DNA from: Blasia pusilla
Lineage: Eukaryota
DNA: 64,000 nucleotides
Direction: 5' to 3'
Assembly (NCBI GenBank): GCA_050084515.1
Contig: CM114271.1
Coordinates: 10,974,001 to 11,038,000 of the forward strand
This document shows, piece after piece, positions 1 to 59,288 of the stretch. A program made the translations under genes and the position numbers. The notes under the pieces were generated by a model. The model was not told where the DNA came from, ran no database searches, and saw nothing but the letters and a program-made list of their open reading frames with translations. Every line of letters starts with the position of its first letter. Positions within the stretch are counted from its first letter, which is position 1.

Positions 1-730
1 GAATCAATTGAAGTACTTCTTCCGCCCAAATGAATCTTGCGCTTTCGGAAGTCTTATCCGCCGCCATTGAGCTCCCGGGAATACCCCACGATTTGGCCCA
101 TCGCCGCAGCACAAACCGCACTCAAGACGAAGTGGACAATCTTACAAGTGCGGTTTTTGACTCAGAGACGGGGAAGTTCGGAGCATGTTCAGCATTAGAG
201 ACCTTCGATTTTAAGTATTCAACCCAAGATTGATGTCAATATGTACCGGAGAAGGTGGATGATCTCAATCCATTATTTATGTTTGAGTCTAGAAATGGGG
301 TGAAGAGAAACAGAATGTGCAGGCCAACCAGTGGAGAGAGCAAAGCTTAATTGCATCACTCGGGAGGCAAAAATGGAGATCATCGCCACGAAAGATGTCT
401 TGAGTGGCAATGGAATAGGAAGGATGTATTGGGTCAGAACAACACAGTAAATTCAAGTGTCACAGGGTGTATGTGGTGCACATTTGTTGCTTTCCCACAT
501 GTTCATGTGATGACTTTGTCCAAAGAGAGACAAGTGGCAAAAGGTATTTCCCTTGTAAGCACATGTACTATGTGTTCTTTGGTAGTTTTAAGAGAGTCGG
601 AGGTAGGAGTAGGAATCCACCAACCAATTCTGTCCCTCAAAGAAGTGCAAAGTATTTTAAACAAACCACTTTGAGGATGCAAAATGAGGTTTTAGATTGT
701 ACTTTTATTTTTCCTCAACCTTCACTTTGA
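1..730 (+). pseudogene. C-terminal part of MULE transposase with SWIM zinc finger (frameshifted)
   Basis: ORF 467-730 contains CSCDDFVQRETSGKRYFPCKH (CxCx(n)CxH, SWIM). ORF 30-233 matches ORF 57809-58702 (TQDEVDNLTSA). Confidence 0.8.
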
Positions 731-1077
731 GCTTGAACTCTATTCAGCCCGGGGCAAATGATAGATTTTTTCCAGACCTTGGATGGAAAAAGTGATTGGT
801 TCCACACTTATGATTCCACTGATTTTTCAGTTTTCTAAATTTTGTGCAATTTGCAACTCGTCGGACTCACAGGGGTTGCCAAAATATGGAAGAGGAAAAA
901 AAAACTGTGGGATTGTTTAATAAATGAACAAAACAGTGCAAAAATATTCACACAAAAAGTTTCCTCTCTTCAACCCAACGGAAACTCTCTTAAAAAAAAA
1001 GTATCTATTTCGGTTGAAGGTAGTTTCCTCTCTCCTCTCTCCTCTCTTCCTCTCTTCCTCTCCTCTTACCGCACCTC
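1..1077 (+). mobile_element. Right-hand end of Mutator-like (MULE) DNA transposon, partial copy 1 (continues upstream of the window)
   Basis: Colinear with about 58200-59278 of the TSD-bounded copy. Ends in the same terminus ...CTCTTACCGCACCTC (1077). Confidence 0.9.
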
Positions 1078-1199
1078 GCGGGGGGCCTTCCGGTCCACAC
1101 CCCTATGGGGTACTAAATGCGGGGAGGGGGAGGGATGTCCGCTCGTTCGTGCATCCGCGCCTCTCTGTCCGTCCGCGCCCCTACTCCGCGCCCTAAACC

Positions 1200-2329: not shown

Positions 2330-2528
2330 TGGGAGTCTTGGATAAAGAACCCACTGTGGTGCACTTCTTACTCTCTTTGAAAAATTTCGTTCATTTGAAG
2401 TAGGAAAGAAACCTCAAAAATTGAAGAAAGTTTTAAAGAGAGTTTAAGGATTTGGCCCTTTTTTCTGGAGAGAGACTCTCCTCTCTTCCTCTCCTCTCTT
2501 ACTCTCTGCTGCCAGAATACCAGCCCCC
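2330..2528 (-). mobile_element. Left terminus of a related MULE subfamily, inverted
   Basis: Reverse complement begins GGGGGCTGGTATTCTGGCAG..GAGAGGAGAGTCTCTC..GGCCAAATC, matching the left ends at 4089 and 49615, then diverges. Confidence 0.7.
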
Positions 2529-2534
2529 AAGGAA

Positions 2535-4087: not shown

Positions 4088-4088
4088 T

Positions 4089-7000
4089 GGGGTTGGTATT
4101 CTGGCAGGAGAGAGGAAGAGAGGAGAGGAAGAGAGGAGAGTCTCTCTTAAAAAAAAAAGGCCAAATCCGCCTCCTCTCTTCAAAACTTTTTGACATATTT
4201 GAAATTTTTGTTTGCTTTCAAATTCATGAAATCTTTAGAAGAGAGTAGGTAGTGGTCCACATTCGGGCCTAAAGAAACCTCCTTTTCCAAGGGGCGAAAA
4301 ACAAGTAGACATCATAAGACCACTACAAATATTTTTCCATCACTCTCCATGTGAGCCTAAGTTTCTTCACATTGCCTGTCTCAGTCTACAATAAGCTGTG
4401 CCTAGGGGTATTTTTGTTGGAGGACCATTGGCAAATAATTTGATCAGAAGTAGCAATCTCATCTCAATGAAAGGTTCAAATAAAGACTCTAACGATGGTT
4501 TTAACAGACTGCGGTGCTTTTCAAGCTTTAACTTCTCAGAATATTTGGTTGACATTATGGATTGACATCTCTTCTTGCAAAAGAAAGGCACAAGGAAATG
4601 TCTGTAAATGATTGTTGACTCTTCTTGCAGAAGGCATCAATACTCATCATACATTATGGAAAACATTTGGCAGCACAGTACCAAAATGAGAATTGTTGAG
4701 CTTCCCCCATTCCCAAGTGTGTCGAAGTGTTAATGTGTCATGAGACCTTACCCGGATGCGCATCGGGTACAATGCCAACCTCTCTTTTTGCAGGGATTGT
4801 TGCCTGCATCATGGCCTCCCCTGAATTGCCCCATAATGAATGGTGTCTGCTCAAGACCACCTTGTGAAATGTGAACACACGAGATGATAATTGAACCAAA
4901 AGATTGTTAGGTGTCTCGAGTAAAGAGGAACTGATGTCCCTTCATTCAGATCCTAAATCTGAGAAACCAAGAAGCTGCACCCCTCCCAACCCGTCGGAAT
5001 TTTACAGCTTGCAACTCTTGCAACCGGTTGGAATCAGATGGCTTGCACCCCTTGCAAGCAACCTCACCATAACAAAGGAAAGATTTTGAGAAGTGATTCC
5101 ATTCCATTCTGCACCCACGGTTGGGAATCCGAAATGGAAATCCAACAGGTAGTAGGAATCGAGCACGTCTTAGAGAAGAAAAGAAGCCTACGACTGGTTT
5201 GACGATAGTGGGGGAACAAGCCAAAAGTGAAGAAGCCCGCCACAATGCCTTAGAAGTTGGTCTCACAGAGAAAGAGTCCGATCACTCAAGCAGCCAACCT
5301 GTCGGAATCCGACAGCTTGCCTGGAAATGGTTAAAAAGTTGCAGTGGTCAAAAAGTGAAAAGTTGCAACCCATCGGAATCAGACGGGTTGCAAAATAAAC
5401 ATTCTCAGTAGCTAGACGAACACAATCGACAAGTCCAAAAAAAATATTCAGCAAACTTTTACAAACACCATTATCGTTTGAAAAAATCTTGTCCTTTATT
5501 ACATCTAAAGGAAGCTCAGAAATGTACATTTGATCTAGTCTATGATTTCTTCAGCCTCGTTATCTACAAATTTACTCCTAACTCTCCTAGGTTCCTGTAC
5601 AAAAGGAATGTCCTGGGATACACGTGGCTCCTCTGGCCGATTGTAGACAGGGATCGAAAATGTTGGCAAATTCGAGAGCCTTGGCCCCCCCTTAGGTATA
5701 CCATAACGGTCCCATATAACATGATTTGAGTCCCACCGCCTCCTCGGCAGCATATCTTGTACGCTTTGCAAGGTGACACCCATCCAGTATCAATATGTGC
5801 TCCGTCCTTGGAAACACCATCATGGCAATCCGACATGTAGTAGGAATCCAACACATCTTAGAGAAGAGAAGAAGCCTACGACTTTTTTGACGATACTAGG
5901 GGAAGGAGCCAAAGTGAAGAAACCCCCCAAAATGCCTCTAAAGTTGGACTTACAGGGAAAGAGTCCGATCACTCACTTAGCCAACCTGTCGGAATTCGAC
6001 AGGTTGCCTGGAAGTGGTTAAAAAGGTGTAGTGGTCAAAAAGTGAAAAGTTGCAACCTGTGGGAATCCGACGGGTTACAAAATAAACTGTCGGAGTTCAT
6101 AGACGATCACCATCGACAAGACCAAAAAAGATATTCAACAAACTTTTACAAACACCATCATCGTTCAAAAAAATCTTGTCCTTTATTACATTTGAAGGAA
6201 GCTCGGAACTGTACATTTGATCTATTCTATGAATTCTTCTGCCTCGTCATCAAATAAATCCCTACTCCAAAACGCTACAGTCAAGCTGGGTCCTTGAGTT
6301 CTTTGAACTCACTCGTGATCGTCCGAGAGCTCTTCCAGAATTACTGTCAGCCTTGCCCTCCCAATTTTTGGAATCGTGGGAAGTGACCATGGTGTCACTA
6401 CCAATGGTGGGTCTGGAACCGGAGCTCTCAGCTTCGGAGGAGAGTTGTACGCCCCAACTAGCCTGTCGTAATCTGCCTTTGCCTCTTTGCAAAGGTCAAA
6501 CAGTTCCTGCCTTCCCTCAAGGCAAAGAATGTTCTTCCCACTTTGCCAGGTGCCTCTGATACTCGCCTCTGAAAGGCCCACTTGGTCGAACACCAAGTCA
6601 CCCATCCTTGAGTAGAGCTTGATGAGGGTTTGCATCAGGGCTGGAGACTTTTCCCTTCCTTCAAGTAAGGGGGTACCGTCTTGCATGTAAATTCTTGGGG
6701 GGATTTTATAAACTATCTAAGCTACACCCATCGGAGCATGGATCCACTGGATCCAGAATCCTAAACACTTGGAAGTTGTGCTCGGACCGAACAAAGCAGT
6801 AAACATAGGAGTGGTCCATTTGTAAAGAAACAGGTTGGAAACAATGTCAGCAACAAGAAAGAGCTACTTGACTGCTGGTCTACTCTCAGTATGGTGACAC
6901 AATGTGCAACATGTCCCCAAAGAACTTCGCTTAACCCTCGATGGGTTGCATTCACCCAATGGAGCCTTGTGGTAAATTTGCAACCCGTCGCTTTCAGACG

Positions 7001-8239
7001 GATTGCAACACTGCAGTCACCAGCTCAAACGATCCGACAGGTTGCGTGCAGAGATGCAACCCGTTGGAGCAAGATAAATTATATATGGATTTAGAGCCCT
7101 TACTCCGATTTGACTCATCGCCAATCGGAGTGGGAACTCCTTCTTGATGACCCACGATTGCGCCGTCCTCCACTTCAGCGACCTCTTCACGCACTGCAGG
7201 TTGAAGAGCTCATCCTTGCTCCCTCTAGTCAAGACCAAGAAACAACCCGTGTCACTGAGATAAGCGTCTGCAAAGGAAAATAGGAGCGCGATCTAGTCAT
7301 AGGTGAGAGGGGCATTCCAGTCTAGGACACTATCAGACGGATTTTCATCCCACAAGCGCAACCAAGAGGGAAAATCAGCGAGGGAGATCCACCGCCACCT
7401 CCTCGACCTCCCCATGGACCGTCCAGGGAGCATGCCCGTTTCGTTGAAGCTTCCGTTCCAACATTGTCAATTTGTCGATGGTGGGTGTCGACTCTTCGGA
7501 ATTGAAACTTTGCAGCTCATCCAAAAGATTCGTGCAATGAATGATGACGCTTGTCCGGGTCGTTGTTTCTCTATGTCTTCCCAAGGATGATGGAGTGTAT
7601 TCCACATCTTGGTCTGCTCCCTAGGACAAACTTGGCGCCTCTCGCTTCCTCTTTTCCCGAGTCTGCGGTCGGCTTGTTGGGGTCTCTATTACCTCGGACT
7701 CTGTTGGAGTTTTCTTGGCGGAGGACGTGGTCTAGCCCTCTCTCCCCGGTCGCTCGGACGATTCCGCCTCTCGCCTTGAATTCTCAGCCTCTTTTTGGGA
7801 AGACTCGGCCTCGGAATTCTTCGATCCCCTTGCCTTTGCTTTCAGACCCGTTGTAGATTTGTCCTTGGCGGTGCAACCTTGGACACCAACTCCGCTGTCT
7901 TGAGGGCTTGCTCCTCCGCATCTCCTTCAAAAAAGTCTTCAGTCTGCACAAAATTTGGGATGTCGTCCCTACGTGCGGCCACTGCATCATACACCCGTCA
8001 AAGATTTTTGTCGGTGATATCCTCGGGGTCGTTGAAGTCCAGCCACATCGGGAAATTCTCCACCTCCCAGTCGGATATGCTTTGAGCCATCTCCATGTCG
8101 TACATGGAAAATGCCTCTCCATCAGGCGGAGAGGCCCACAATTTGCACGCTGCCGGCATTTTTCGCAAAGTACCTCCATTCTTACAATGAATGAGGTACC
8201 TGAACATCATCCGTTGGGCAGCTCTTTGTCGAGATGCAT
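4089..8239 (+). mobile_element. Left part of MULE element (partial copy 2), retaining the methyltransferase-like region
   Basis: Starts GGGGTTGGTATTCTGGCAGGAGAGAGG. 4089-5835 is colinear with 49615-51035 and 7722-8239 with about 51047-51565. Similarity stops at 8239, where a copia remnant begins. Contains an internal direct repeat of about 420 bp (5148-5565 / 5837-6255). Confidence 0.9.
6309..8239 (-). pseudogene. 3' part of MULE cargo gene: beta-class amino-(N4C/N6A) DNA methyltransferase-like domain
   Basis: Minus-strand reconstruction: VDL/LADFPS (7376-7365, position of the DPPY motif); FADAYLSDTGCFLVL; SWVIKKE; GT donor at 7103; degenerate acceptor at 6820, in phase; YVYCFVRS; then ORF 6309-6686 GREKSPALMQTLIKLYSRMGDLVFDQVGLSEASIRGTWQSGKNILCLE. 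This resembles the KP.L...I...S..GD.V.D.F.GSG.T..A....R..IG.E end of N6_N4 MTases. Confidence 0.6.
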
Positions 8240-10520: not shown

Positions 10521-10549
10521 CTCCCCCTCAATATCCATTCTCATGTGGA

Positions 10550-20645: not shown

Positions 20646-20684
20646 AGTGTTCGCCGGGGCGGCTCACATTTGAGGGAGGGGGTA

Positions 20685-21864: not shown

Positions 21865-21869
21865 GTACT

Positions 21870-25374: not shown

Positions 25375-25447
25375 CTCTCAAGATTTTGTGCAAACACACT
25401 AGATCGCCAGATACAAAATACTGGAAAAACCTATTGCTCTGATACCA

Positions 25448-25864
25448 TGTGAGAAAAGCAGAAAGTGACTAAATCACTGAAATCTTTACAAAACTTAGAG
25501 ATACAAAATGGCCTAGTCCGTCCGTGCGCTCACAGAAGAGCTTCGATGGAACCTGAACTGGGAGATAACTCGACATACGAGAATGCGCTACCGCTGCGGC
25601 TCCCGACTATTTGACTACTCGGGAAAATTTTTTACCTATTTTTCTTTGTTTCTATTAATAGAAAAATATTGCATCAGGGTGCCCCGCACCCTGATGCAAT
25701 ATAGGGTTAGATAAACCTAGTAACGCTACTCCGTAAACCACCTACGTCATATTACTTTGACTCCTTCGACGTCTAAGTCAGAACCATCGATCTAGGCTTC
25801 TCCTCATACAAGGGGGCCGATCAAATCAATGGTGCTCAGAGGAGTGGATGTTGAGAATCCAATA
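25448..25864 (-). repeat. Copia 5' LTR
   Basis: Adjacent to the PBS. Contains a 17-bp-arm hairpin at 25666-25702. Confidence 0.95.
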
Positions 25865-25869
25865 CGCCG

Positions 25870-40701: not shown

Positions 40702-42960
40702 CTAAACATTTGAAATTGGGGCACTTGGAGAATCCTCTTCTACATTTGCAACTTCCAATGGAGTATCATGCTTACCTTTCACATATTTCTCTGGATTAGA
40801 ATACACATATCTGAAGTTAGCAGAATTTTTCCAAAGAATTACTGATTCTACCAACAAATCCTCGTAATCAAGTATCTTACCCTCTAAAGCTATCCTGAGA
40901 ACAACATCTAAATGCTTAGTCGTCAATCGATTCCGACTTTTTGTTTTGATCAAATTCTGCACAAAGAAAGCTCTCTCACAAATTGCAGTACTCACACATT
41001 GTACCCTAGCAATGTTAGCTAATACAAGCAAATTAGAGAACTTACATTGCAGAGATGGGCTCCAACTTACCATTGCCCACAAATCTCGAAAGTTTCTATC
41101 TTTCCATTCTGTGGTGGCCATGAGCTTAAAGGATTGGAACTCAGACTTCACACTTGCTGAATTCACAAGAGGTGGTTGCAAGTGACCCCTACAAGGCGTT
41201 TCCCTTCCAAAATGTGCACAAAGATCATCCACTTCTTTGCAACCCCAACTATTCAACCCTACTAACCTTGAGGGCATATGAAGAGGATTCAGAATTTTCA
41301 TTGCACCTATCAAACTATTATCCCTAAATCTATCATGTAAGGCTACACATACATTCTCAGCAAAGTTCTTTTGGAAAGTTAGAGCATCCTGTAAATCCTT
41401 TCCCGTACGATCTCTCGATATTTCAATGCTATGGAACTTTCTTCCCCTAATCTCAGATTGCAGTCGTTTCAGGTATCCACCAGGAGGTCCAAAATCAGGT
41501 AAGAGATAATAACTCTTTTCTTCAGAGAATGTAGAAGCATTCAAGTCATGATTCTCCATTACAAAGGTCATTGTAATAGAGGCTATCTCAGAATTCACAA
41601 TACTACCAATAGTACTAACATCTACAAATTTGTATTGGAAAACCTTACTCAAATTACCAAGGATAAACAATATGTCTGCCAAAAAGTACAACTGATAGAT
41701 CATTTCAAATGATCTAAGCTTGTTGTACATGTTAGTAGCATTACCATCATCTTCAGAGCGGGGAATGTCCCTGAAATAGGTGAGAACAGATTCGAGGGAG
41801 TCACACAAACTAGTCACGGCTTGCCATCGAGACAACCAACGAATTTTATGATATCTCCTCATGACCTTCTGAGAGTCATTCAACTTCTCTTGCAAAGTTG
41901 CAAGAGCACACTTCCTCTTTGAGGACCTTCTAAAGTATCCACTCTGAGAATTCAAGATGGAATCAATCTCTATATATACATCTTTACAACCTGGTCCTTT
42001 GGCTGTTGTCAAAGAAGCAAGATTGGTCCTATGTGCAACACAATGTACAGAGAGCAAAAATGGGTTTGCTTTCAACTTCAACTGAGATGCTACTCCATTC
42101 TGACTACCTACCATAGTTGAGGCTCCGTCTGATCCAAAAGCCACCATATTTGAACTGTCTAGTCCCGAGTCCTTGATCAACTCCAAAAGATTGTTAGTAA
42201 TGGCATTTGAACACTTCTCTGGACATTGCAACAATCCTAAGAACAATTCTCAACCCGCCCTTCTAACAAGTAAGTTGCAAATACAACAAGATGGCCCGTT
42301 CTTGAAATATCGTGGACTCTCGTCAATCATGATCCCAAAGAAAGGAGATTGTTGAACTTTTGAAAGTGTCCTTCTATGCACTACTCCGATGATATAATAA
42401 AGATATCAAAGACAAGTCTTCTCATCTTGGTATAAATCTCGGGTGATTGGTGTATTCACTGAGAGTAACAACTTACACAGATTCGGGAATTTGGCAAAAG
42501 CCAATGATTCCTTGGCGATGAAGTATGCACACTTGAACAATGTTAACAAGGCTTCGTCACAAGTCCGATTAGTAGTGGCAATGGCCATGGCCATCGACCT
42601 GTGTCCTATATTAGCAGCCCAAGAAAGTTTCATATGCTCAATCGATTTGCCATGATCTGTAAAGGCTGAAACCTTACAGTTTATGGCACCATCCCTTGCA
42701 AAGGAATTCTTACCCTTTCCTTGTCTACAAACCTTACAAAATATTCTACCAGATTCCGCATGAAACTCTATCTAGTCAAATAAGCTATACCAGACATCCT
42801 TCCAAGCCAGTTGATTCTTCTCAATTAGACTACTGGAAGGAGTACAAGAATTCCCATTTTCCCTCCCATCCGAGGACCATGACCGACTCGAGTTCTCAGT
42901 AAAGTCTTGGCTTACGTCTTTGGCCAACATTTCGCTCATGGTTCGCTGTCTCTTAGCCAT
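40702..42960 (-). pseudogene. hAT transposase (ZNF862-like), disrupted at the N-terminus
   Basis: ORF 40702-42246 (514 aa) has FGSDGASTMVG, HCVAHRTNL, IRWLS and STAICERAF..NLIKTKSRNRL (dimerisation region). Upstream fragments 42406-42633 and 42772-42960 are separated by stops or frameshifts. Confidence 0.9.
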
Positions 42961-43679: not shown

Positions 43680-44240
43680 GAATGGACCCCTTCGGCGAAT
43701 GAAAGAGCAAAGAAGATGAGGCGAGGTGCAACACTGCAAGATTGCAAATCCCGCTCGAGCTGCGTAGTGAGCGAATGGACCCACCCCCTTCGACGACAGA
43801 TAGGTGCAACACCAGTGAGCGAATGGACCCCCTTCGGCGACAAAAAGGTGCAACACTGCAAGATTGCAAATCTCGCTCGAGCTGCGCAGTGAGCGAATGG
43901 ACCCCCTTCGGCGACAGACAGGTGCAACACTGCAAGTGCAAGATTGCAAATCCCGCTCGAGCTGCGCAATGAGCGAATGGACCCCCTTCGGCGACAGACA
44001 GGTGCAACACTGCAAGTGCAAGATTGCAAATCCCGCTCGAGCTGCGCAGTGAGCGAATGGACCTCCTTCGGCGAGAGACAGGTGCGACACTGCAAGTGCA
44101 AGATTGCAAATCCCGCTCGAGCTGCGCAGTGAGCAAATGGACCTCCTTCGGCGACAGACAGGTGCGACACTACAAGTGCAAGATTGCAAATCCCGCTCGA
44201 GTTGCGCAGTGAGCGAATGGACCCCCTTCGACGAATGCAG
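43680..44240. repeat. 80-bp minisatellite inside the hAT element
   Basis: Unit GCAAGATTGCAAATCCCGCTCGAGCTGCGCAGTGAGCGAATGGACCCCCTTCGGCGACAGACAGGTGCAACACTGCAAGT. ORF starts at 43864, 43944, 44024, 44104 and 44184 show the 80-bp period. Confidence 0.95.
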
Positions 44241-45049
44241 CATTGTAGCCAACCCTCGGACTCTCGGACGAGTCGGACGAGTCGGACCGACTCGAACGGT
44301 CTCGGAGTCTCGGAGTCTCGGACGAAGTCGCACGACTCGCACCTCAGATGCTTGGTCACCCGAGTGGGCCGACAGTCACCGACTCACCCCCACAGGGCCC
44401 CGCCGCCCCACTCACTCGCAGTCTCGCTCCCTAACATTCCTTCGGCCCTGACGGCTGCTCTACATCGGACGGCCATGATCACCGCATGAGAATCTAAAGG
44501 TTCTCACCTATTATCTGGTTTTCCGACCACCTGAAAGTGGGCCAGCAAAATACCGATCGCCGTGAAATGCATTCCGGATGGAATCCAGGGGAAGTGACCG
44601 GCAGCTGCAACATTCCGGCGTAGTCCTCCCGGGAAACGGCACATTTTCGGCTTAAGAAATGCCGGCCATCCGTTAACAGGAATATCCTCTGATGCCGTCG
44701 GAATCTTAGCCGGCTAATTTTCCCGGGCGTCGTCAATTCCTGATTTTAACCATCAAGATTTACTCACGTTGCCGGTTCTCCCCGGACGTTGCAAACAACT
44801 ACACATGTGGTCCCCTCATGAGACCAAGTACCAACTGACCCACGACCTATAGGTCCAAGTGGAGGCACATGGCTGGGAAGGTCAACCTCTCCAAGGTTGC
44901 CACTCCTCATAAAGGGAAGGGTGACCTACACTCGTAGGTCACCTCCTAAGAGCAGGTCACATAAGACCTCTGAAAATAGGTAAGTACAAGACCCCTCTAA
45001 GGCCTCGATACTATCTCGCCCTATGCCTCATCTACCATGACACACTTCA

Positions 45050-49604: not shown

Positions 49605-51049
49605 GTTTGCTGAAGGGGGCTGGTATTGTGGCATGAGAGAGAAAGAGAGGAGAGTCTCTCTTCAAAAAAAGGGGCCAAATCTGGCTCCTCTCTTCAAACT
49701 TTTTGACATATTTGAAATTTTGTTTTGCTTTCAAATTCATGAAATCTTTAGAAGAGAGTAGGTAGTGGTCCACATTTGGGCCTAAAGAAACCTCCTTTTT
49801 CCAGGGGGCAAAAAACAAGTAGACATCATAAGACCACTACAAACATTTTTCCATCACGCTCCATGTGAGCCTAAGTTTCTTCACATTGCCTATCTTAGTC
49901 TACAACAAGCTGTGCCCAGGGGTATTTTTGTTGGAGGACCACCCGGATGCGCATCGGTATGATGCCAACCTCTCTTTTTGCAGGGATTGTTGCGTGTATC
50001 ATGGCCTCCCCTGAATTGCCCCATAATGAATGGTGTCTGCTCAAGATCAACTTTGTGAAATGTGAACACACGAGACGATAATTGAACCAAAAGATTGTTA
50101 GATGTCTGGAGTAAAGAGGAACTAATGTCCCTTCATTCAGATCCTAAATCTGAGAAACCGAGAAGTTGCACCCCTCCCAGTACGTCAAAATTTTACAGGT
50201 TGCAACTCTTGCAACCCGTCGGAATCAGATGGCTTGCACCCCTTGCAATCAAGCTCCCCATAACAAAGGAAAGATTTTGAGAAGTGATTCCATTCCACCT
50301 TGCACCCACAAAAATCCAACAGGTTGGGAATCCAAAATGGCAATCCGAGAGGTAGTAGGAATCCAACACGTCTTAGAGAAGAAAAGAAGTCTATGACTGG
50401 TTTGACGATACTAGGGGAACGAGCAAAAAGTGAAGAAGCCCGCCACAATGCCTCAGAAGTTGGTCTCACAGGGAAAGAGTCCGATCACTCAAGCGACCAA
50501 CTGTCGAATCGACTGACTTGCCCGAAATGGTTAAAAAGTTGCAGTGGTCAAAAAGTGAAAAGTTGCAACCCGTCGAAATCAGACGGGTTGCAAAATAAGC
50601 ATTATGAGTAGCTAGACTAACACAATCGACAAGTCCAAAAAAATATTCAGCAAAATTTTACAAACACCATTATCATTTGAAAAATCTTGTCATTTATTAC
50701 ATTCGATGGAAGCTCGGAAATGTACATTTGATCTAGTCTATGATTTCTTCAGCCTCTTCATCTACAAATTTACTCCTAACTCTCCTAGGTTCATGTACAC
50801 AAGGAATGTCCTGGGATACAAGTGGCTCCTCTGGTCGATTGTAGACCGAGATAAAAAATGTTGGCGAATTCGAGAGCCTTGGCCCCCCCCTAGGTACACC
50901 ATAATGGTCCCATGTAACCTGATTTGAGTCCCACCGCCTTCCTCGGAAATATATCTTGTACGATCTGCAAGGTGACACCCATCTAGTATCAATATGTGCT
51001 CCGTCCTTGGAAACACCATCATGGCAATCCGACAGGTAATCCAATAGGA

Positions 51050-54000
51050 CCTGGTCCAACCCTCTCTCCCCGCTCGCCCGGACGATTCCGCCTCTCGCCT
51101 TAAATTCTCAGCCTTTTTTTAGGAAGACACGGCCTCGAAATTCTTCGATCCCCTCACCTTGGCTTTGAGACCCGTTGTAGATTTGTCCTTGGCGGTGACG
51201 ACCTTGGAGACCAACTCAAATGTCCTGAGGGCTTGCTCCTCCGCATCTCCTTCGAAAAAGTCTTCAGGCTGCACGAATTTGAGGATGTCGTCTCTACCTG
51301 CAGCCATTGCATCATAAACCCGTCAAACATTGTTATCGGTGATGTCCTCGGGGTCGTTGAAGTCCAGCCAGATCGGGAAATTCTCCACCTCCCAGTCGGA
51401 CATGCTTTGAGCCATCTCCATGTCGTACATGGAAAATGTCTCTCCATCAGGCGGCGAAGCCCACAATTTGCAGGCTGCTGGTATTTTTTTCCACGTACCT
51501 GCATTCTTACAATGGACGAGGTACCTGAACACCATGCGTTGGAAAGCTCTTTGTCAAGATGCATCGGCCGCCTGCTCCTAAAGATCTCACTTTTTCTTTG
51601 CGAAATTCCTTTTCTTCGCCTCTATTTATTCATCAAGGTCTGCCTGAGGGAGGATGTGATCCTTGAACATCGTCTTGAAGCCTGGGTTTTTTATGGGCTT
51701 ATCTCGGATGTCATCCAGCCAAAGTTTGAAATCTTCAACACTCTCCAGGTTTGCTTCCTCCGGAATTGGCTCTATTTTTTTGAGCTCTGCTTGGAGACCC
51801 ACGAGCACGGACTTCTCGAGAAGCCGCAACGCATCCAAGAATGACCATTCACGGAGCCAGTGGGAGATCACTGGATCAGAGAAACCCGGAGGATGGTGTG
51901 CCGCCCTCTTTTGGGCCTCTGTGCCCTCGAGACTGATTTTCATCAGTCGGATTCTCCTAAATTCTGAAATTCCAGACAAGGAAAATCTATGCACGCGGTC
52001 AAGAGACACTTTCTCCCCAATCCGAGCTTGCGGATCTTCATCCCTCTTCCGTTGGCGCTTGATTATCGCCTTCAGCTCCTTGTAGAAATCGGGGCCAAGT
52101 TCGGGGTTGAGAATGGCGATGTAGCGCTACATCTTGCTTGCACTGTACTTCGTAGATGCAGATATTGCAGCTTGTATGAACTTAGCACGCTCCGACGCAG
52201 ACACGTTCTCCCTCCGCTCCAGCTCCAATAAAGCGCTCTTCTTGGTGGCATGTATCTTCGACCAGCAAAGGATTGTCACGGCTGCATCTTGGTAAATAAA
52301 TATATTTTCCCAAGTCTTTTTTTTATTTGAGCCCCCTTCGCCAACATCTCATTTACAAGAGCGTCGCCCAAGAACCCCTTGTACTCTCTTGGGTGCGTCG
52401 TTAGCACTTTCTTCACCCGGTCGCAATCCTGGATCCAATGGTGGGTAACGTTCCCCTCGGATACAATCCTGCACATCCAAACACACTATAAGAATTTTTG
52501 CAAGCTACATGGGTTCCTGCAACTCGTCGGACTCCGACAGGTCACTACACCTCATGGTTGAAATGATAGCTAAGAGCTAAATATTGCAACCCATCGGAGT
52601 CCGGCGGATTTCATTTAGATTTGTGATTGCCTGGTTACATCTCGTCGGACTCCGACGGGTTGTCAAATGATTTGTATTCAGAGAGTGGTTTCCGCGTAAA
52701 AAGTGAACATATCAACCCGTCAGAGTCCGACAGGTTGCGCAATTTCAAGTAAAGCTACAATTTGACGCCAAAAATCAAGCTCCCCTACTCCGATCACCTA
52801 CCCGTGGCGGCGAATGCAACCCGTCAAAGTCCGACGAGTTGCTTTTGGCCAAAACATCCTTAAAACAGCGGCCAATCAAGCAACTCGTTGGACTCCGACG
52901 AGTTGCTTTTAGGCATCCGATGTTTTGGTACCACTAGTTAAACAACTCATCGGAGTATGACGGTTTGCAGCAATCAAAATAAAGGAAGAGGAAACTTACG
53001 TGTTCATGGCATGCATGGCCATTTCCAACGTCGCCATGTGATGAGGGTATGGATTTAGCACGATTGCCTTCACGCAAAAATGCGCCTCCAATGAATTTGG
53101 GCGCTCCTGTGCAAACAGGGTTCACGCCATCAACCTGTGGTTTCCATCCCAGATGAAGAAATAGAGGTTCCCATCCAGCTGAATTCCGTCCCCTCAACCA
53201 CTATTATGAATTCCTGATCTCTCATCCTCCACAATGTGTCGAGCGCTTCCAAGTCCTCCTCCGTCACCAGCGCTTGGGTTCCATGTTGATCGTAAGGCTG
53301 AACATAGAACGGAGGGAAGCTGTCGACGTAGGATGTTGTCGCTGCCGACTGTTTCAGCTTCGCAATATCCTCGTCAGACTAAATTTCGCGGACATACTCC
53401 ATTGTCTGCAATCGGAAAAGTGGAATTCTCGGGGCGTTCTAGCCCTCCATCACTGCCATCTGCTTTACAACCTGTCACAACGCGGACAAAGTCAATAAAC
53501 TACACTCAATTGCTAATGAATTGCAATATAGGCCTTCACATAACTCAAAGATCAAAGACTGTCTCTTATACGCTCAAAGATTGGGTTGGTATCTTGGCCC
53601 GCCAACTGCTCTAGGACAACATCTGGCAAGTCCACTGGAAACTCGTCGATCCGATAGAGGTTGATTTCTTCCGTCGGGCTCAGAGATGAGGAAGACTGCT
53701 CTCTTGCTTCTTCAAATATGTCCACAATCTCCACGCTGGCGGTCCTCATGACCTCATCGTCCGTCACTTGAACTTCGGCCGTTTCCTCAGCCGATTTTAT
53801 ATTGATTGTGTCCCCAGACTTCATCGGGGATATTTCTTGCATCTCAACACTTTTGGTTGGACGGGTCGGGCTTTCTTCAATGGCAATCATTTTTTCCCTT
53901 CGAGCTTTTTCCAATTCTGCTCTCCTCACTGACGCGTCTAGACACTTCTTTTCACGCTTCTCCTTGGCGATCCTTTTCTTCAAGGCCTGCAACGCCTCAG

Positions 54001-54250
54001 CCTCTGCGTTCTATTTTTCAAGCGCCTCCTTAACACGTTTTGCAAGAAGCTCATCCCTGTGCATTTCCGCTTCCCTTTCGCGCTCCTCGATCTCTTGCTG
54101 CCTTATCTCATTGGCCAAACGAGGCCCTTGAGATGGTGACAAAGGAGTCATGGACTTGGGATTGAAGCTCCCAACCTTCCTTGCTTGAGATATTTTCCTC
54201 GTCATTGTTCCCGAAAATGCCTCCTCCTCTACAACAAAATTACTTTCTGT
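51050..54250 (-). pseudogene. MULE cargo gene: coiled-coil N-terminus, ParB/Srx-like domain, helical region (MTase part deleted in this copy)
   Basis: Exon 53471-53000 translates, with stops and one frameshift, as RIPLFRLQTMEYVREI*SDEDIAKLKQS..PFYVQP..YFFIWDGNHRLMA*..HFCVKAIVL..AMHAMNT. DGNHR is at 53148-53134. The GT-AG intron 52999-52469 joins in phase to IVSEGNVTHHW. It continues through ORFs 51626-52009, 51323-51535 and 51119-51307. Confidence 0.75.
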
Positions 54251-54528
54251 GCACGATGATTCGCCTCGATGAGTCTCCTTGATGAGTCGCTCGGATCATT
54301 TCGCGATGAGTCGCTCGAATCGTCTCGCGATGAGTCATCTTGTAAAGCGCCTCTTTGTATCTGGTCTGCTGCTGCGCTGAAGAGCAATCGAGATCGCGAA
54401 AGAAAAAACCGGAAATGAGCAAACCCCCGCCTATTTTTACTTTTCGAGCTGTTGAGCTGACCGTTGGGTCGCATCATCATTCCGACAGCGACGTGTCGGC
54501 CGTAATGCAAGTTTGCACATGAAAACCA

Positions 54529-54965
54529 CCAACTCAACGGTCTCCGACGGGTTGGAGGCATCTGTCCTCCTCGGGTTAAAAAGCCGAGCTATCCTGGCAA
54601 TCCGTCGGAGTCCGACAGGTTGTGCGCCTTCGCCGTCTTGGGGCAAGAACGCGAGGTACCCGCGCAACCCATCGGAGACCGGGGGGTTGCACGCTTTCCT
54701 TGTCTTGGGATAACAAGGTGGGGTACCCGCACAACTCCTCGGAGGCCAACGGGTTGCACGCTTCCTTCATGTAAGCGTTAGAAGGCGAGGCACTTGCGCA
54801 ACTGGTCAGAGGCCGACGGGTTGCACGCTTCCCTCATCTTGGGGTAATAGGCGAGGTACCTAGGCAACCCATCGATTACTGACAGGTTGCACTCTTTTCT
54901 ATCCCTCGGGTAACAATGTGACAACAGATAGTTCCGAGGCAACCTCTTGCAATCTGACGGGTCAC
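54529..54965. repeat. Array of seven 27-bp palindromes at about 67-bp period between the divergent MULE genes
   Basis: Copies at 54529, 54597, 54664, 54731, 54798, 54864 and 54939. Consensus GCAACCCGTCGGAnTCCGACGGGTTGC. Confidence 0.85.
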
Positions 54966-55312
54966 AAGGTCTACCCTGAGTTAGACAATACCGTAACAGT
55001 CCCCATCGATTAGTTGAGATAATCTAGCCAGTGATTGCAGACCAGAAAGTATGGAATCTCTTACCTCTAGCAAATGGTCAATACAGAGTTTACGGCTTGC
55101 CTCTGAATTCCTAAGTTTCCCAAGTAGACGGTCGAGAATTTCCTAGTCCACCGATCTCTACGTTTGCAACTCCTAGCTCATTAGATCCGGCATCGACTCC
55201 AACTTCACACGTTTGTAATAATGTTGTACTTCCTGAAGATATTCCGGATGTCGTCAACCTCAGTGGATCTGTCGGACACCAACCGGGCCCTCTATGCGCC
55301 TACTCGTTCCTC

Positions 55313-58300
55313 TTGCGAGTATTAGGAAATAGTTTGCTATTGTCTCTAGCGTTGAAAATTTTCAAGCACATTCTTGTTGACGAGCTACCGCCCACGTACA
55401 ATGGTAATTTCATTTTTGAGATGCCTCCACTTGCTGCTCCTGCTCAAAAGAAAGATGGAGGACGCTTGAAGGGTATGGACAGAAAGTCTGATTGTCATCG
55501 ATGGTGCAGACTTCAACGGACTAGTGCTTCAATTCCAGATGGTCCTTGGATTGTCTCTCGCCGCCAATGGGTTGGAGCCTTGGAGTGTAGAAGTCCAGCA
55601 TGCCCGTATCTAGAGCGCAACGAGCGGGTCAATACGTCACAATTTCCTCCCAAGAATGCACAAACTCTATATGAGGTCGGTGCCACCATACCGCGGGGAG
55701 GCCATCCATGTCCTCATTGTGAGACATCCCCTTTCTACGTTGGAGCGTGTCCTGCATACATATTTTTCATTGTCCATGACTTGGGTTCCACGTTAGAGTA
55801 CACAAGGCTGGCAATTCATGTTGGCTCCCACACTCATCTTGTGACCGATGCAATTCTGAGACACATCAAGGAGGATGTGGCGAAGAAAGTGGCCGAGGTC
55901 TAAAGAAAATCTCCGGGTTCAAAGCCTAGAGTGATTAAGTTAACAACAACATCACAAATTTGTGAACAACTCCTTAGAATCGCTGGACAAGGCGAGATCA
56001 CGGCTATTGAGGAGAAACAACTCTGGGAAAATCTCGCTAATCCTGAATGCTTCCGGAATTCGCTGCGTCAAATACGGGTACTGGATGGAAATACGGCCAA
56101 AATGGATGCCATTGCTAGAATCAAGGCCAACTCTAGATTTCCATCCATTCAGAGATGGCAGTTCATGGGCGAGGGAGGCAAAGGATCCAGGGCCTATGTC
56201 TTCAAATTGTCAACGACAGGTCCGTCGAGTGGCCTCGATCTTATAGATCGGATGAGGGAAGGGGAAGATCTTTACGGCAGCTGGGTAAGTTTGATATTTG
56301 CTACAGAGTCCTGAACGAATGGCTGACAATGGGTGCTCATGTTTATGACCGTGTGAAGAAGGGACTCAAAACTATATTTGTTTGTGAAGTAAAAGCAGAA
56401 GACGTTGGCAGTTTGAACATGTGTTGGTTACTCTTATTGGAGGTGGTGAAGGAAAACAAAAGGCCACCTTCGGAAATTTATGGGTTCATGGCGGACAATG
56501 CACAATCTCGGTGGTTTGCTATCAGGGAAGTGTTTTGGGGTGAGGAGGTTCAACCGGAGAGAGAAAGGTGGGATGCTTTCCATTGGCAACAGTATGTGAC
56601 CCGGTACATCAAATCTTGCATCAAGGAGAATAAGAGGACGGAGCATGTCATTCTACTCCAACGTTGCAAGGACAGAAAAAGCTTGAAACAGGCCATGGAA
56701 TGCCAAGAAGAAATTCATGGGTGGTGGAGGAAACATGCGATTGAGGGGAAGTACAAAGAGTTATGCTCTTGGCTGAGTTGGTGGATTGTATGAATGAGAA
56801 AATGGGGAAACTTCATGCGGGAGGTGAGTTCACTAATTTGTCTCGCTGAAAATTGTTTGAAGAGTTGTAGCTAAAGTTGAGAAGCGTGGGCACTATAGGG
56901 ATTTCAAACCGAAGAAACCAAGCAATTTGTCGGATGCGACAGGTTCCTGAGTGTTCAACTCGTCGCTTAGCGACAGGTTGCCTAAGTGTGCAACCAGTCG
57001 AAAACCGACGGGTTGCAAGTCGCATGGCCAAATTTACTTGCAACCCGTCAGAATCGGACGGGTTGACGGGTTGCTTGAGAGTGCAACTAGTGGGAAAATG
57101 ATGGGTTGACGGGTTGCCTGAGTGTGCAACCAGTCGGAAAAGGACGGGTTGCAAGTCGCATGGCCAAATTTACTTGCAACCCGTCGGAATCGGAGGGGTT
57201 GCACTAGGTGGTTCTTGGGTGTTGCAACACGTTAGGAACCGAGAGGTCGTAGAGTTGTTCATGGGATGCCTTGGCCTTGCAACCCATCTGGTTCCGACAT
57301 GTATCTTATTTCTTTGACTTCTAAGCTATTTTCGTTCCCTTCTCACATTGGGGTCGTTGCGGGCATTGAACATTCATGAAAATGCCCTCTGCCCCAACAC
57401 AAGTGGAGCAGAAAGTGTTCATTCCTCCTAGAGGTCGTCACATGCATGCCAAAGAATTTCATTTGTGGAGGTATGCCAACAAGACCAGGCAAGAGCAATG
57501 CTACAGTCTGCACCATCCCATATCTTCCTACAAAAGGCATAACAAAAGGAAGGGGGCCTTCGATCTACGAGCTCTATGTCAGGGCGGTTGTGAGATCTGG
57601 TGATGAGAAACTCTATGTGGAAGCCTTCAACCGGTGCGTAGCAAGAACTCCCCTCGACCAAGACGTACAAATTGGTGGGGATATTCGTGGGCGCGTTTCA
57701 AGACGTCCCATATAGACGGTGGTAGAGCAGTCCGAGCGAGACTCGTAGAGACTAGATAAGTATCTTGACTTCAGGCAGGTGAAGAGGTAGCATCGAGGAA
57801 CGAATCTGATGATTGATTTGGATGAGGAAATTACGCCGCCCCGGTATTCGAGGACCCCGGATTTCTCCCAAATCCGTGATGGAGTAACTTCTTCAAAATC
57901 AATGAATGTTTTATTTCAAAAGCCCTCTTTTGGTGGAAGATCGCAACATCCGGTGGCTGGGGTGGTTCAACAATATGGGATTTCGGTCATGGAGGTAGAT
58001 TGCAACCTGAAACGGTGGCATATATCTCGGATCAACCCTGGACGTGGATCCACTTGCAAGGCAAGATCTGATGGCATTAGGAGAGCATGCGACACTTTCC
58101 TAAATAAGAACTGTACAAGGACTGGACGACCACTGCCTCGGTTTTGGGGACTCAAACCCTTTGATCGTTTCACAAGGACTAGGGATCAATTGAAGCACTT
58201 CTTCTACCCAAATAAATCTTGCGCTTTCTGCAAGACTTATCTGGTTGCCATTGGAGCTCCGGGGAATACCCCCACAATTTGGCCCATTACCGGAGGTATG

Positions 58301-58870
58301 AATTGCACTCAAGACGAAGTGGACAATCTTACAAGTGCCAGTTTCAGACTCGTTGACGGAGAAAGTTCAGAGCATGTTCGTATTACAAAGACCTTCGCAT
58401 TTCGTAATCAACCCAAGATTGATGTCAACATGTACCCGGAGAAGGTGGATGATCTCAATCCACTATTTCTGTTTGAGTCTAGAAATGGGGTGAAGAGAAA
58501 CAGAATGTGTAGGCCAACGGTGGAGAGAGCAAAGCGAATTGCATTAGCTCAAGAGGCAAAAATGGAGATCATTGCCACAAAAGATGTCCACAATGGCAAT
58601 GGAATAGGAAGGATATATTTGGGTCATGAACAACACTGTAAATTCAAGTGTCACAGAGGTGTATGTGGTGTACATCTGTTGCTTTCCCACATGTGCATGT
58701 GATGACTTTGTCCAAAGAGAGACAAGTGGCAAAAGGTATTTCCCTTGCAAGCACATGTACTATGTGTTGCTTGTAGCTTTAAGAGAGTCGAAGGTAGGAG
58801 TATGAATCCACCAACCAATTCTCTCCCTCAAAGAAGTGCAAAGTTTTCTCAACAAACCACTCCGAGGATG
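55313..58870 (+). pseudogene. MULE-family DDE transposase with GCM/WRKY-like Zn domain and SWIM finger (start approximate)
   Basis: N-terminal DCHRW..TS..GALECRSPACP..CPHC..CPA..IHVGSHTH. Core FDICYRV, GFMADNAQSRWFAIREVF and DAFHWQQ. Intron donor at 56824. PNTSGAESVHSS (E at 57411). C-terminal CACDDF..PCKH SWIM (about 58693-58757). Confidence 0.8.
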
Positions 58871-59288
58871 CAAAATGAGGTTTTAGATTGTACTTTCATT
58901 TTCCAAAACCTTCACTTTGAGCTTGAACTCTATTCAGCCCAAGGCAAATGATAGATTTTTTCCAGACCTTGGATGGAAAAAGTGATTGGTTCCACACTTA
59001 TGATTCTACTGATTTTTTAGTTTTCTAAATTTTGTGCAAATTGCAACTCGTCGGACTCACATGGGTTGCTAAAATGTGGAAGAGGAAAACAAATTTGTGG
59101 GAGTGCTTAAGAATTGAGAAGAAAAATGCAAAAAAAATCACACAAAAAGTTTCCTCTCTTCAATCCAACGGAAACTCTCTTCAAATCATAGGAAACTCTC
59201 TTAAAAAAAAGTAGAAGATAGTTGTAGATAGTTTCCTCTCTCCTATCTTCCTCTCTTCCTCTCCTCTTACCGCACCTCGTCTGTTGAA

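What the first reader, a model, noticed from the sequence alone, without database searches (positions are those of the whole stretch)
52469..57300. 27-bp palindrome repeated throughout the non-coding DNA of the ParB-encoding MULE (parS-like or VANC-target-like sites)
Seen: consensus GCAACCCGTCGGAnTCCGACGGGTTGC occurs in the cargo-gene intron (52519, 52586, 52637, 52712, 52816, 52880), between the genes (seven copies), in the transposase intron (about 56920-57300), in the MTase intron (about 6930-7060) and in both arms (about 853, 4987, 5020, 5294, 5365, 5981, 6052, 50211, 50565, 59043). I saw none in the exons or outside MULE copies. Established: ParB dimers load at palindromic parS sites, and VANC proteins bind motifs accumulated in non-coding regions of their own element. 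Inference: these are cis recognition sites for the ParB-MTase or for the transposase GCM-like domain, making a protein-plus-site system.
Basis: partly seen in the sequence, partly recalled or inferred. Interest (0 to 1): 0.82.

Follow-up and report, generated by a model that had tools for sequence, protein, structure and literature searches.

The report
Palindrome sites filling a transposon's non-coding DNA
A 27-base palindrome really is repeated about thirty times in the non-coding parts of one very abundant cut-and-paste transposon and nowhere else nearby, and it most likely marks the element for a protein that the element itself encodes, though which protein is not shown.

Summary
All 32 copies (≤8 mismatches) lie inside three copies of one transposon family (14.8 kb). 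The other 49 kb of the window has none. In the complete copy (49615-59279, 9-bp target duplication), 26 of 27 scored sites sit in arms, two intron-like gaps and the space between two divergent genes.

The motif is a discrete module. Information content collapses at its edges. In the cargo-gene gap the palindromes are 74% alike while the spacers between them are at shuffled level. Deviations are mostly one-sided decay, enriched at CpG, with no compensatory excess. Some sites shared between copies keep only one good half. This fits a dimeric protein site better than a hairpin.

No site lies within 562 bp of the 5' end or 210 bp of the 3' end. That argues against a role in transposase end recognition.

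The cargo protein is methyltransferase-like only at sub-threshold level, supported through moss homologues. A ParB domain was not confirmed by any search.

The same idea is already in print for VANDAL/VANC in Arabidopsis and for red-algal Plavaka elements. I rate this a new variant of a known kind. No binding has been tested.

The parts
49615..59279 (+). Complete but decayed copy of the transposon (element 2, 9,665 bp), inserted into a Ty3/gypsy reverse-transcriptase gene.
   Evidence: The flanks match a paralogous retroelement at 26599-27773 on both sides. The ends are shared with copies A, B and C. The host ORFs carry RVT_1 and RNase H domains.
49606..49614 (.). Left 9-bp target-site duplication (TTTGCTGAA).
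   Evidence: Read. The paralogous empty site reads TCTTCTGGA.
59280..59288 (.). Right 9-bp target-site duplication (TCTGTTGAA). It differs from the left one at 2 positions.
50177..50591 (.). 5'-arm sites: 50211 and 50565 are strong, 50177 is weak, and a site near 50499 is broken by single-base deletions.
   Evidence: Most family reads insert a G behind 50505 (401 of 551) and a C behind 50509 (455 of 551). A loose-end consensus from 344 reads shows a full palindrome here, like the copy-B site at 5294.
52519..52968 (.). Cluster of 7 palindromes in the gap (intron-like) of the cargo gene. Spacers are 24-77 bp.
   Evidence: Palindromes are 74% alike pairwise; spacers are 41% alike, the same as shuffled spacers at 42%.
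54529..54965 (.). Seven palindromes in a 67-bp tandem array between the two divergently oriented genes.
   Evidence: Spacers are 61% alike against 48% for shuffled spacers, and palindromes are 68% alike, so this is a true tandem repeat.
56955..57305 (.). Eight sites (57224 is weak) in the gap of the transposase gene. They include a 43-bp and a 136-bp repeat.
   Evidence: RNA depth in bin 57019-57340 is 0-0.2, against 3-17 in the neighbouring bins.
59043..59069 (.). Single 3'-arm site, ending 210 bp from the element's 3' end.
   Evidence: The same imperfect form occurs in copy A at 853.
50733..54230 (-). Remnant of the cargo gene, with an in-frame stop and a frameshift. It has a coiled-coil-like N-terminal part. 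The C-terminal part is related to moss proteins.
   Evidence: ORFs. Most family reads insert a T behind 53171 (608 of 1075). There is weak collinear similarity to P0003 (E 0.006 for a single comparison). No ParB hit.
55115..58805 (+). Remnant of the transposase gene.
   Evidence: ORFs. Protein-atlas lead to MULE PF10551 clusters: score 0.93, 24 of 30 hits. SWIM zinc finger at E 0.036, and E 0.028 in copy A, both below Pfam's cut-off.
3..1078 (+). 3' part of another copy (copy A), cut by the window start. It has a site at 853-879.
   Evidence: 87% identical to 58185-59279..
4089..8239 (+). 5' part of a third copy (copy B). Sites at 4986, 5020, 5294 and 5365. A 687-bp internal duplication repeats two of them at 5981 and 6052.
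6937..7082 (.). One full site (6980) and three half-sites or short forms (6937, 7033, 7056) in a gap of the methyltransferase-like part of copy B. Element 2 lacks this stretch.
   Evidence: Element 2 has no match to 5839-7722.
6309..6716 (-). ORF with the AdoMet-binding (motif I) region of a beta-class DNA methyltransferase-like domain.
   Evidence: Pfam N6_N4_Mtase at E 0.048, below the cut-off. PHROG DNA methyltransferase families at E 0.013-0.12. The only hit among 1.84 billion representatives is P0001, E 5.2e-4, a Ceratodon purpureus hypothetical protein. Its paralogue P0003 hits PHROG methyltransferases at E 2.5e-5.
2355..2528 (-). Isolated 5' terminus of a further copy (copy C), without any site.

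Best explanation
The palindromes are cis-acting recognition sites for a sequence-specific protein, probably a dimer, that the transposon itself encodes. They have accumulated in every non-coding part of the element: the arms, the gaps within both genes and the shared upstream region. Accumulation was partly by tandem-repeat growth. The element thus carries about 30 'self' tags.

The binder is more likely the accessory (cargo) protein, which has a DNA-methyltransferase-like C-terminal part, than the transposase acting at the ends. Binding would let the element modify or protect its own chromatin. This could work by anti-silencing in the manner of VANC, or by targeted methylation at or beside the sites. 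Each site carries four CpGs, and the consensus has a central GANTC.

Shown: the distribution, the modular conservation, the decay pattern, the very high family abundance and low-level transcription of both genes. Inferred: that a protein binds, which protein, and what follows.
For: 1. Family-restricted. There are 36 PWM sites in 14.8 kb of element DNA and 0 in 49.2 kb of other DNA, which is mostly other transposons.

2. Excluded from ORF-bearing DNA. 26 of 27 sites in element 2 lie in the 36% of the element without supported ORFs.

3. Discrete module. The 26 specified positions inside the 27-mer carry 0.30-2.0 bits each. All 30 flanking positions carry ≤0.51 bits. In the cargo-gene gap the palindromes are 74% alike, while spacers are at shuffled level (41% against 42%).

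4. Half-site logic rather than hairpin logic.
- Of 127 changed mirror pairs, 117 are one-sided.
- Double changes number 10, against 12.7 expected if the halves change independently.
- The site pairs 5020/50211 and 853/59043 are shared between copies, so they were present in the common source element. They keep a good left half and a poor right half.
- Those sites fold no better than shuffled sequence: -2.9 and -2.8 kcal/mol, matched or beaten by 61 and 26 of 200 shuffles.

5. Not at the termini. The first site is 562 bp from the 5' end and the last ends 210 bp from the 3' end. The AtMu1c transposase, by contrast, gives ChIP peaks at the terminal inverted repeats (section 7 of bioRxiv 10.64898/2026.08.24.746577, read).

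6. The layout matches VANC targets. Passages of PMC5735166 describe motifs in non-coding regions, in tandem repeats, in introns of two element genes and upstream of the third.

7. Family reads.
- 81,956 of 12.43 million WGS reads (0.66%) lie on the element at ≥80% likeness.
- Many listed DNA joints and loose ends fall on palindromes and lead into varied sequence. An example is 569 reads before 54597 with a consensus agreement of only 0.51.
- Inserted letters at those joints contain further half-sites.
- The palindrome is therefore the constant piece in variable arrays.

8. Both genes are transcribed at a low level, on the expected strands.

9. Precedent. Section 8 of bioRxiv 10.1101/2025.02.11.637652 reports tandem arrays of inverted repeats beside a transposon accessory gene with a ParB-like domain and proposes self-binding.
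Against: - No binding data of any kind.
- No DNA-binding domain could be assigned to either protein. ParB was not found. The methyltransferase signal is below Pfam's cut-off. Both folds were unusable, with pLDDT 37.5 and 27.9.
- Every gene copy in the window is broken.
- In the intergenic array the palindrome (68%) is hardly better kept than its spacer (61%). That array looks like plain tandem amplification.
- Between paralogous copies the palindromes diverge as fast as their surroundings: 13 of 134 positions against 194 of 2322. There is no constraint after insertion.
- The central GANTC survives in only 15 of 32 sites.
- The module test is partly circular, because sites were chosen by their match to the 27-mer.
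- Confinement was tested in one 64-kb window only.
- No related element from another species could be fetched.
Confidence: 0.4

Rival explanations
1. The palindromes are transposase-binding sites. They would be subterminal and internal sites that help assemble the transposition complex, or that let the transposase activate its own element.
For: - Sites occur in both arms: 3 in the 5' arm and 1 in the 3' arm of element 2.
- MULE transposases are sequence-specific binders. AtMu1c alone binds its element, hypomethylates it and activates it (section 7 of bioRxiv 10.64898/2026.08.24.746577).
- The transposase is the only element protein that must bind element DNA.
Against: - The outer 562 bp at the 5' end and 210 bp at the 3' end carry no site.
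- 22 of the 27 sites in element 2 lie in the two gene gaps and between the genes.
- AtMu1c peaks are at the terminal repeats.
- No DNA-binding domain was recognised in the N-terminal ORF, and its fold failed.
Confidence: 0.2
2. The palindromes have no protein partner. They would be a self-propagating by-product: a short palindrome-bearing unit amplified by replication slippage, unequal exchange or gene conversion, and tolerated only where it does not break coding sequence.
For: - The intergenic array is an ordinary 67-bp tandem repeat, with spacer and palindrome equally diverged.
- There are 43-bp and 136-bp repeats in the transposase gap and a 687-bp duplication in copy B.
- Family reads show many array rearrangements and strand switches at palindromes.
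- There is no constraint after insertion.
Against: - In the cargo gap and the arms the palindromes sit in unrelated flanks at shuffled-level similarity. Unit duplication alone does not explain this.
- The same 27-mer is kept in at least five separate compartments of the element.
- Absence from ORF-bearing DNA is expected under both views, so it does not discriminate between them.
Confidence: 0.15
3. The palindromes are binding sites for a host transcription factor, which the element uses as enhancers or a promoter for its two divergent genes.
For: Seven sites fill the 884-bp space between the two divergently transcribed genes, and others lie in gene gaps where enhancers can act.
Against: - None occurs in 49 kb of other DNA.
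- A conserved 27-bp site with 13-bp halves is longer than I would expect of a host factor site. This is my own knowledge and comes from no call.
- Sites in the far arms are not explained.
Confidence: 0.1
4. The palindromes act as nucleic-acid structures. They would form hairpins in transcripts or cruciforms in DNA that feed small-RNA production, splicing control or recombination.
For: - The best copies fold well as DNA hairpins: -11.4, -10.9 and -8.2 kcal/mol, with 0 of 200 shuffles as good.
- Any copy can pair with any other copy in RNA.
- RNA reads cover the cargo-gap cluster.
Against: - There is no compensatory excess: 117 of 127 changed pairs break pairing.
- Sites inherited by two copies fold no better than shuffled sequence.
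- No Rfam family matches at gathering score.
Confidence: 0.05

Closest known systems
VANDAL transposons with the VANC anti-silencing protein and its short target motifs (Arabidopsis; Hosaka et al. 2017, PMC5735166, passages read)
   Same: - The superfamily appears to be the same (Mutator-like).
- An accessory gene sits beside the transposase.
- An element-specific motif has accumulated in non-coding DNA: introns of element genes, upstream regions and tandem repeats.
- The arrays vary between related copies.
   Different: - The motif here is a 27-bp palindrome, not a 9-bp asymmetric word.
- The cargo is a long methyltransferase-like protein. No VANC-like family was found.
- Binding and hypomethylation are shown for VANC. 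Nothing is shown here.
Red-algal Plavaka (and Chondrus Mutator) elements with accessory genes PAG2 (N6-adenine methylase plus SET) and PAG3 (ParB-like plus 2OG oxygenase) and tandem inverted-repeat arrays (Petroll et al., bioRxiv 10.1101/2025.02.11.637652, section 8 read)
   Same: - Accessory genes of DNA-modifying type.
- Arrays of inverted repeats on the element.
- The same self-binding hypothesis, equally untested.
   Different: - A different transposon superfamily for Plavaka, and a different host lineage. The nearest protein relatives found here are from a moss.
- In the red-algal elements the arrays are described as adjacent to PAG3. Here the sites are spread over all non-coding parts.
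- ParB was not confirmed here.
ParB-like plus N4C/N6A DNA methyltransferase accessory protein of the Ectocarpus Sola1-1 element (Dinatale et al. 2025, PMC12477816, passages read)
   Same: - A long accessory protein encoded on the strand opposite to the transposase.
- A methyltransferase of the N6/N4 type.
- Proposed to bind and modify its own element.
   Different: - A different superfamily (Sola1).
- No cis motif is described in the passages read.
- The domains here are below family thresholds.
Bacterial ParB-parS partition and clamp-loading systems (background in PMC12704722, passages read)
   Same: Clustered palindromic sites on the same DNA molecule that would encode the binder.
   Different: - No ParB N-terminal fold or helix-turn-helix was detected.
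- The motif is 27 bp, whereas parS is 16 bp. The parS length is recalled and comes from no call.
- No ParA partner.
- The host is a eukaryote.
Subterminal transposase or TnpA-binding repeats of En/Spm and Ac/Ds, and the MURA sites in Mutator terminal repeats (recalled; partly)
   Same: Repeated short motifs specific to one element family, some of them in the arms.
   Different: Those sites cluster within a few hundred bases of the ends. Here the termini are free of sites, and most sites are internal.

Membership tests
Mutator-like (MULE) DNA transposon | Target-site duplication of about 9-11 bp | tested here: met
   A 9-bp duplication, TTTGCTGAA and TCTGTTGAA (2 differences), around an insertion whose empty site is seen in a paralogous retroelement.
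Mutator-like (MULE) DNA transposon | MULE transposase domain (PF10551) | tested here: inconclusive
   No Pfam hit at E≤10. No word-index homologue. The protein-atlas lead scores 0.93 to MULE clusters, 24 of 30 hits.
Mutator-like (MULE) DNA transposon | C-terminal SWIM zinc finger, common in the superfamily | tested here: inconclusive
   PF04434 at E 0.036 (element 2) and E 0.028 (copy A), at 14.0 and 14.4 bits against a cut-off of 19.6.
Mutator-like (MULE) DNA transposon | Terminal inverted repeats | tested here: inconclusive
   The ends are GA-rich and only loosely inverted. A local alignment of the two ends found no long repeat. The termini are conserved between copies.
ParB-parS system | ParB N-terminal (CTPase-fold) domain in the encoded protein | tested here: not met
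   No hit in Pfam at E≤10 for any cargo ORF, in PHROGs or NCBIfam at E≤1 or in PDB sequences at E≤10. The protein atlas scored 0.76 to unnamed clusters. The gene is decayed and frameshifted here, so an intact copy might still show the domain.
ParB-parS system | Clustered palindromic sites in cis | tested here: met
   32 palindromic sites on the element copies. This matches in form only.
ParB-parS system | CTP-dependent loading at the site and spreading | not testable with these tools
   Needs biochemistry.
VANC-type self-recognition (anti-silencing) system | Element-specific motif accumulated in non-coding regions, often as tandem repeats | tested here: met
   compared with passages of PMC5735166.
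VANC-type self-recognition (anti-silencing) system | Accessory protein homologous to VANC | tested here: not met
   No Pfam family of any kind on the cargo ORFs apart from the sub-threshold methyltransferase. The VANC family was not searched by name.
VANC-type self-recognition (anti-silencing) system | Protein binds the motif and the element loses DNA methylation | not testable with these tools
   Needs ChIP, EMSA and methylomes.
Transposon accessory protein of ParB-methyltransferase type (algal elements) | N6/N4 DNA methyltransferase domain | tested here: inconclusive
   - PF01555 at E 0.048 for the window ORF and E 0.0024-0.034 for moss homologues, all below the cut-off.
- PHROG DNA methyltransferase families at E 2.5e-5 for P0003 and E 0.013 for the window ORF.
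- Only the motif-I region aligns.
Transposon accessory protein of ParB-methyltransferase type (algal elements) | Encoded on the strand opposite to the transposase within the element | tested here: met
   ORF layout and the strand bias of RNA reads.
Subterminal transposase-binding repeats (En/Spm, Ac type) | Motif clusters concentrated within a few hundred bases of both ends | tested here: not met
   There is no site in the first 562 bp or the last 210 bp. 22 of the 27 sites lie in the two gene gaps and the intergenic space.

The most novel reading that the evidence does not exclude
A plant-lineage transposon carries a complete 'self-marking' system of bacterial or phage ancestry. A ParB-fold and methyltransferase-like cargo protein would load as a dimer on about 30 parS-like 27-bp palindromes and spread over the element's non-coding DNA. 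It would deposit N6-adenine or N4-cytosine methylation, for example at the central GANTC. Alternatively it would simply block access to the four CpGs of each site. Either action would counter the host's cytosine-methylation silencing. That would help to explain how the family reached 0.66% of all genomic reads.
Probability: 0.13. Interest if true: 0.85.

Novelty: new variant of a known kind. Interest (0 to 1): 0.5.

Why it matters
Only one transposon system is experimentally known to recognise and epigenetically alter its own copies: VANDAL/VANC in Arabidopsis. A second class, built on methyltransferase and ParB-like cargo proteins, has so far only been proposed, from algal genomes.

This family offers a sharply defined 27-bp candidate site, about 30 copies per element and a very large natural sample of copies. 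That makes the proposal directly testable. The tests would be binding assays with two proteins, modified-base calls from long reads around a known motif, and co-variation of site and protein across subfamilies.

A positive result would show how a transposon tags itself as 'self'. It would also give a compact protein-plus-site pair for targeting chromatin changes. A negative result would leave a clean example of palindrome-seeded repeat turnover inside a transposon.

Tried and rejected
Genome and comparative searches:
- Whole genome: none is held for this window, so no genome-wide PWM scan could be run.
- Earlier notes of this scan: nothing found by place, by words or by sequence.
- The exact degenerate palindrome in metagenome and viral contigs: 0 matches each.
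- Loci encoding relatives of the moss proteins in metagenomes: 449 pattern matches, none confirmed.
- As a result, no comparative test across species was possible.

Protein searches:
- Word-index searches with the transposase core ORF and with a 166-aa cargo ORF found nothing.
- PDB sequence searches with four queries (three cargo-gene ORFs and the moss protein P0003) gave nothing, or chance legumain hits at E≥0.024.
- The protein atlas on the putative ParB piece scored 0.76 to unnamed clusters.

Structure predictions:
- The transposase N-terminal ORF gave pLDDT 37.5.
- The moss homologue, with a 3-row alignment, gave pLDDT 27.9.
- Both models were unusable, so no fold search was run.

Other searches:
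- Rfam on the element: no family at gathering score.
- Literature search for the two ends of the motif: only unrelated primer listings, in 2 papers.

Sequencing runs:
- No RNA holder was listed in the run index. RNA reads were laid directly instead.
- Deletion-like and inversion-like joints between distant palindromes (for example 50568 to 56989) have short sides of 26-30 bases. They may be cross-mapping between palindromes, so I do not count them as real deletion derivatives.

Ideas considered and dropped:
- Tiny foldback insertions: the arms abut with a 1-bp spacer, there is no internal sequence and there are no duplications around them.
- Excision footprints: the same 27-mer recurs every time.

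Full report
**Observation**

The consensus GCAACCCGTCGGAnTCCGACGGGTTGC has 11 matches at ≤3 mismatches, where 100 dinucleotide shuffles gave none. It has 32 matches at ≤8 mismatches.

All 32 fall in 853-6980 and 50211-59043. Every coordinate in the finding was recovered, with one extra site at 52942 and one off-by-one (4986, not 4987).

All 41 half-site matches at ≤2 mismatches lie in the same stretches. No copy is perfect; the best have two mismatches.

A PWM built from the 32 sites scores ≥6 bits at 36 places within the 14.8 kb of element copies. It scores at none in the other 49.2 kb. Five shuffles gave 0-2 such places.

**What carries the sites**

A self-comparison shows one transposon family present three times:
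- A complete copy at 49615-59279.
- The 3' end of a second copy at 3-1078.
- The 5' part of a third copy at 4089-8239.
- A bare 5' terminus at 2355-2528.

The complete copy interrupts a Ty3/gypsy reverse-transcriptase gene. The uninterrupted paralogue of that gene lies at 26599-27773, which fixes the ends and shows a 9-bp target duplication with two differences.

Several results place the element in the Mutator-like superfamily, although no Pfam model reaches its cut-off:
- The 9-bp duplication.
- A protein-atlas lead to MULE clusters for the core ORF (score 0.93, 24 of 30 hits).
- Sub-threshold SWIM fingers in two copies (E about 0.03).

The element holds two divergent genes, both broken. A long cargo gene lies on the minus strand (about 50733-54230) and the transposase on the plus strand (about 55115-58805).

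**The cargo gene**

One ORF of copy B (6309-6716) carries the AdoMet-binding region of an N6/N4-type DNA methyltransferase:
- Pfam gives E 0.048.
- PHROG methyltransferase families give E 0.013-0.12.

Its only relative among 1.84 billion representative proteins (E 5.2e-4) is one of three paralogous hypothetical proteins of the moss Ceratodon purpureus. Those three give the same domain signal: Pfam E 0.0024-0.034 and PHROG E 2.5e-5.

A ParB domain was not detected by any method. The candidate region is frameshifted in this copy. Most family reads carry an extra base at 53171, so the negative result is weak.

**Family level**

I laid about 1% of a whole-genome read set of the same organism label on the element at ≥80% likeness. 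This placed 81,956 of 12.43 million reads (0.66%). The family therefore makes up a sizeable fraction of that genome.

Summed depth of both read directions is about 1,200-1,570 in most ORF-bearing bins. It is about 500-720 in the palindrome-rich bins.

Many listed DNA joints and loose ends sit on palindromes and lead into heterogeneous sequence. Some of that sequence holds further half-sites. The arrays therefore vary in structure between copies while the palindrome persists.

Where this copy differs from the family majority, A>G and T>C are the commonest classes (459 of 1,193 places). This means the copy has decayed mainly by C-to-T change.

RNA reads are few (432 and 651). They lie on the strands expected for each gene. 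The bin 57019-57340 is nearly RNA-free, as an intron would be. The cargo gap 52511-52832 is covered, so its intron status stays open.

**Anatomy of the motif**

- Positions 2-5 (CAAC), 9, 19 and 24-25 are 91-100% conserved.
- The four CpGs are the most decayed: 24.6% mismatch against 12.8% at other positions.
- 67 of 137 deviations are C>T or G>A.
- Information content falls to ≤0.51 bits at all 30 flanking positions.
- In the cargo gap the seven palindromes are 74% alike, while their spacers are as alike as shuffled spacers (41% against 42%).
- The intergenic sites form a genuine 67-bp tandem repeat, with spacers 61% and palindromes 68% alike.
- The sites therefore arose or spread in more than one way. 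At least some are kept as a module in unrelated contexts.

**Symmetry**

- Of 416 mirror-pair cells, 117 show a change on one side only.
- Eight show complementary double changes and two show non-complementary ones.
- 12.7 double changes were expected by chance. There is no compensatory signal.
- Sites inherited by two copies (5020/50211 and 853/59043) have one good and one poor half. They fold no better than shuffled sequence.
- This favours recognition of half-sites by a protein over a requirement for a hairpin.
- After insertion the palindromes diverge like their surroundings: 9.7% against 8.4%. That is expected of dead copies.

**Which protein**

In the complete copy, sites per kb are:

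| Compartment | Sites per kb |
|---|---|
| Cargo gap | 13.4 |
| Transposase gap | 15.6 |
| Between the genes | 7.9 |
| Arms | 2-3 |
| ORF-bearing DNA | 0-0.8 |

None lies in the first 562 bp or the last 210 bp. A Mutator-like transposase is expected to bind at the termini, as shown for AtMu1c. The layout here resembles the VANC targets of VANDAL elements instead.

I therefore favour the accessory protein as the binder, without any direct evidence.

The consensus centre is GANTC, the target of CcrM-type enzymes of the same methyltransferase class. That target assignment is recalled and comes from no call. GANTC survives in only 15 of 32 sites, so this is no more than a lead.

**Known relatives and novelty**

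- Accessory proteins of ParB-plus-methyltransferase type on algal transposons are in print.
- Tandem inverted-repeat arrays beside a ParB-like accessory gene in red-algal Plavaka elements are in print, together with the idea of self-binding.
- VANC is the experimentally proven case of the principle.
- The 27-mer itself was not found in the paper library. That search cannot see supplements.
- The finding is thus a new variant of a known kind. It has a different motif architecture, a different cargo, an element-wide distribution and a host lineage whose nearest relatives are mosses.

**Limits**

- Only one window was examined.
- All gene copies are broken.
- No genome was available.
- No related locus from another species could be fetched.
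- No usable fold was obtained.
- No binding data exist.

Noticed in passing
window 40702-42249 (-): A 515-aa open frame, the longest in the window, has no Pfam family at E≤0.001. It was not examined further.
   Followed up: no
window 43777-44256: A tandem array of five 80-bp-spaced units (160-nt reference copy), 84-96% alike apart from one edge copy at 61%. Overlapping open frames run on both strands.
   Followed up: no
window 10134-25868: Nested LTR retrotransposons. A Ty3/gypsy element carries gag, zinc knuckle, RT and integrase ORFs at 12685-18278, between 97-99% identical direct repeats (11074-12248 and 20685-21864). It lies inside another pair of repeats (10134-10524 and 25445-25868), next to a minus-strand integrase with a retroviral SH3-like domain at 23071-23814.
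   Followed up: partly
window 5224-6266: Copy B has an internal 687-bp direct duplication (about 85% alike) that doubles two palindromes: 5294 and 5365 reappear at 5981 and 6052. Family reads show a matching 'goes back 684' joint in 189 + 46 reads. The duplication is therefore common in the family and is not private to this copy.
   Followed up: partly
window 51460 region (-) and 8150 region (-); moss proteins P0001-P0003: Where a beta-class methyltransferase would carry its catalytic (D/N/S)PP(Y/F/W) motif, both window copies read SPPD and the moss proteins read DAPE. This is my own reading. No alignment supports the placement. If the placement is right, the domain may be catalytically altered or dead.
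   Followed up: partly
window 5839-7722 against 51038-51046: Element 2 lacks about 1.9 kb that copy B has, including the methyltransferase motif-I ORF. 736 family reads run on into other sequence before 51046. The 'complete' copy is thus itself a deletion form.
   Followed up: partly
window 49615-59279: Compared with the family majority, this copy differs most often by A where the family has G and T where it has C (459 of 1,193 listed places). This is the signature of C-to-T decay, as expected of methylated DNA.
   Followed up: partly
window 54254-54336: Short 13-bp and 24-bp tandem repeats (GATGAGTCGC-type units) lie just upstream of the cargo gene's first ORF. They are distinct from the palindrome.
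   Followed up: no
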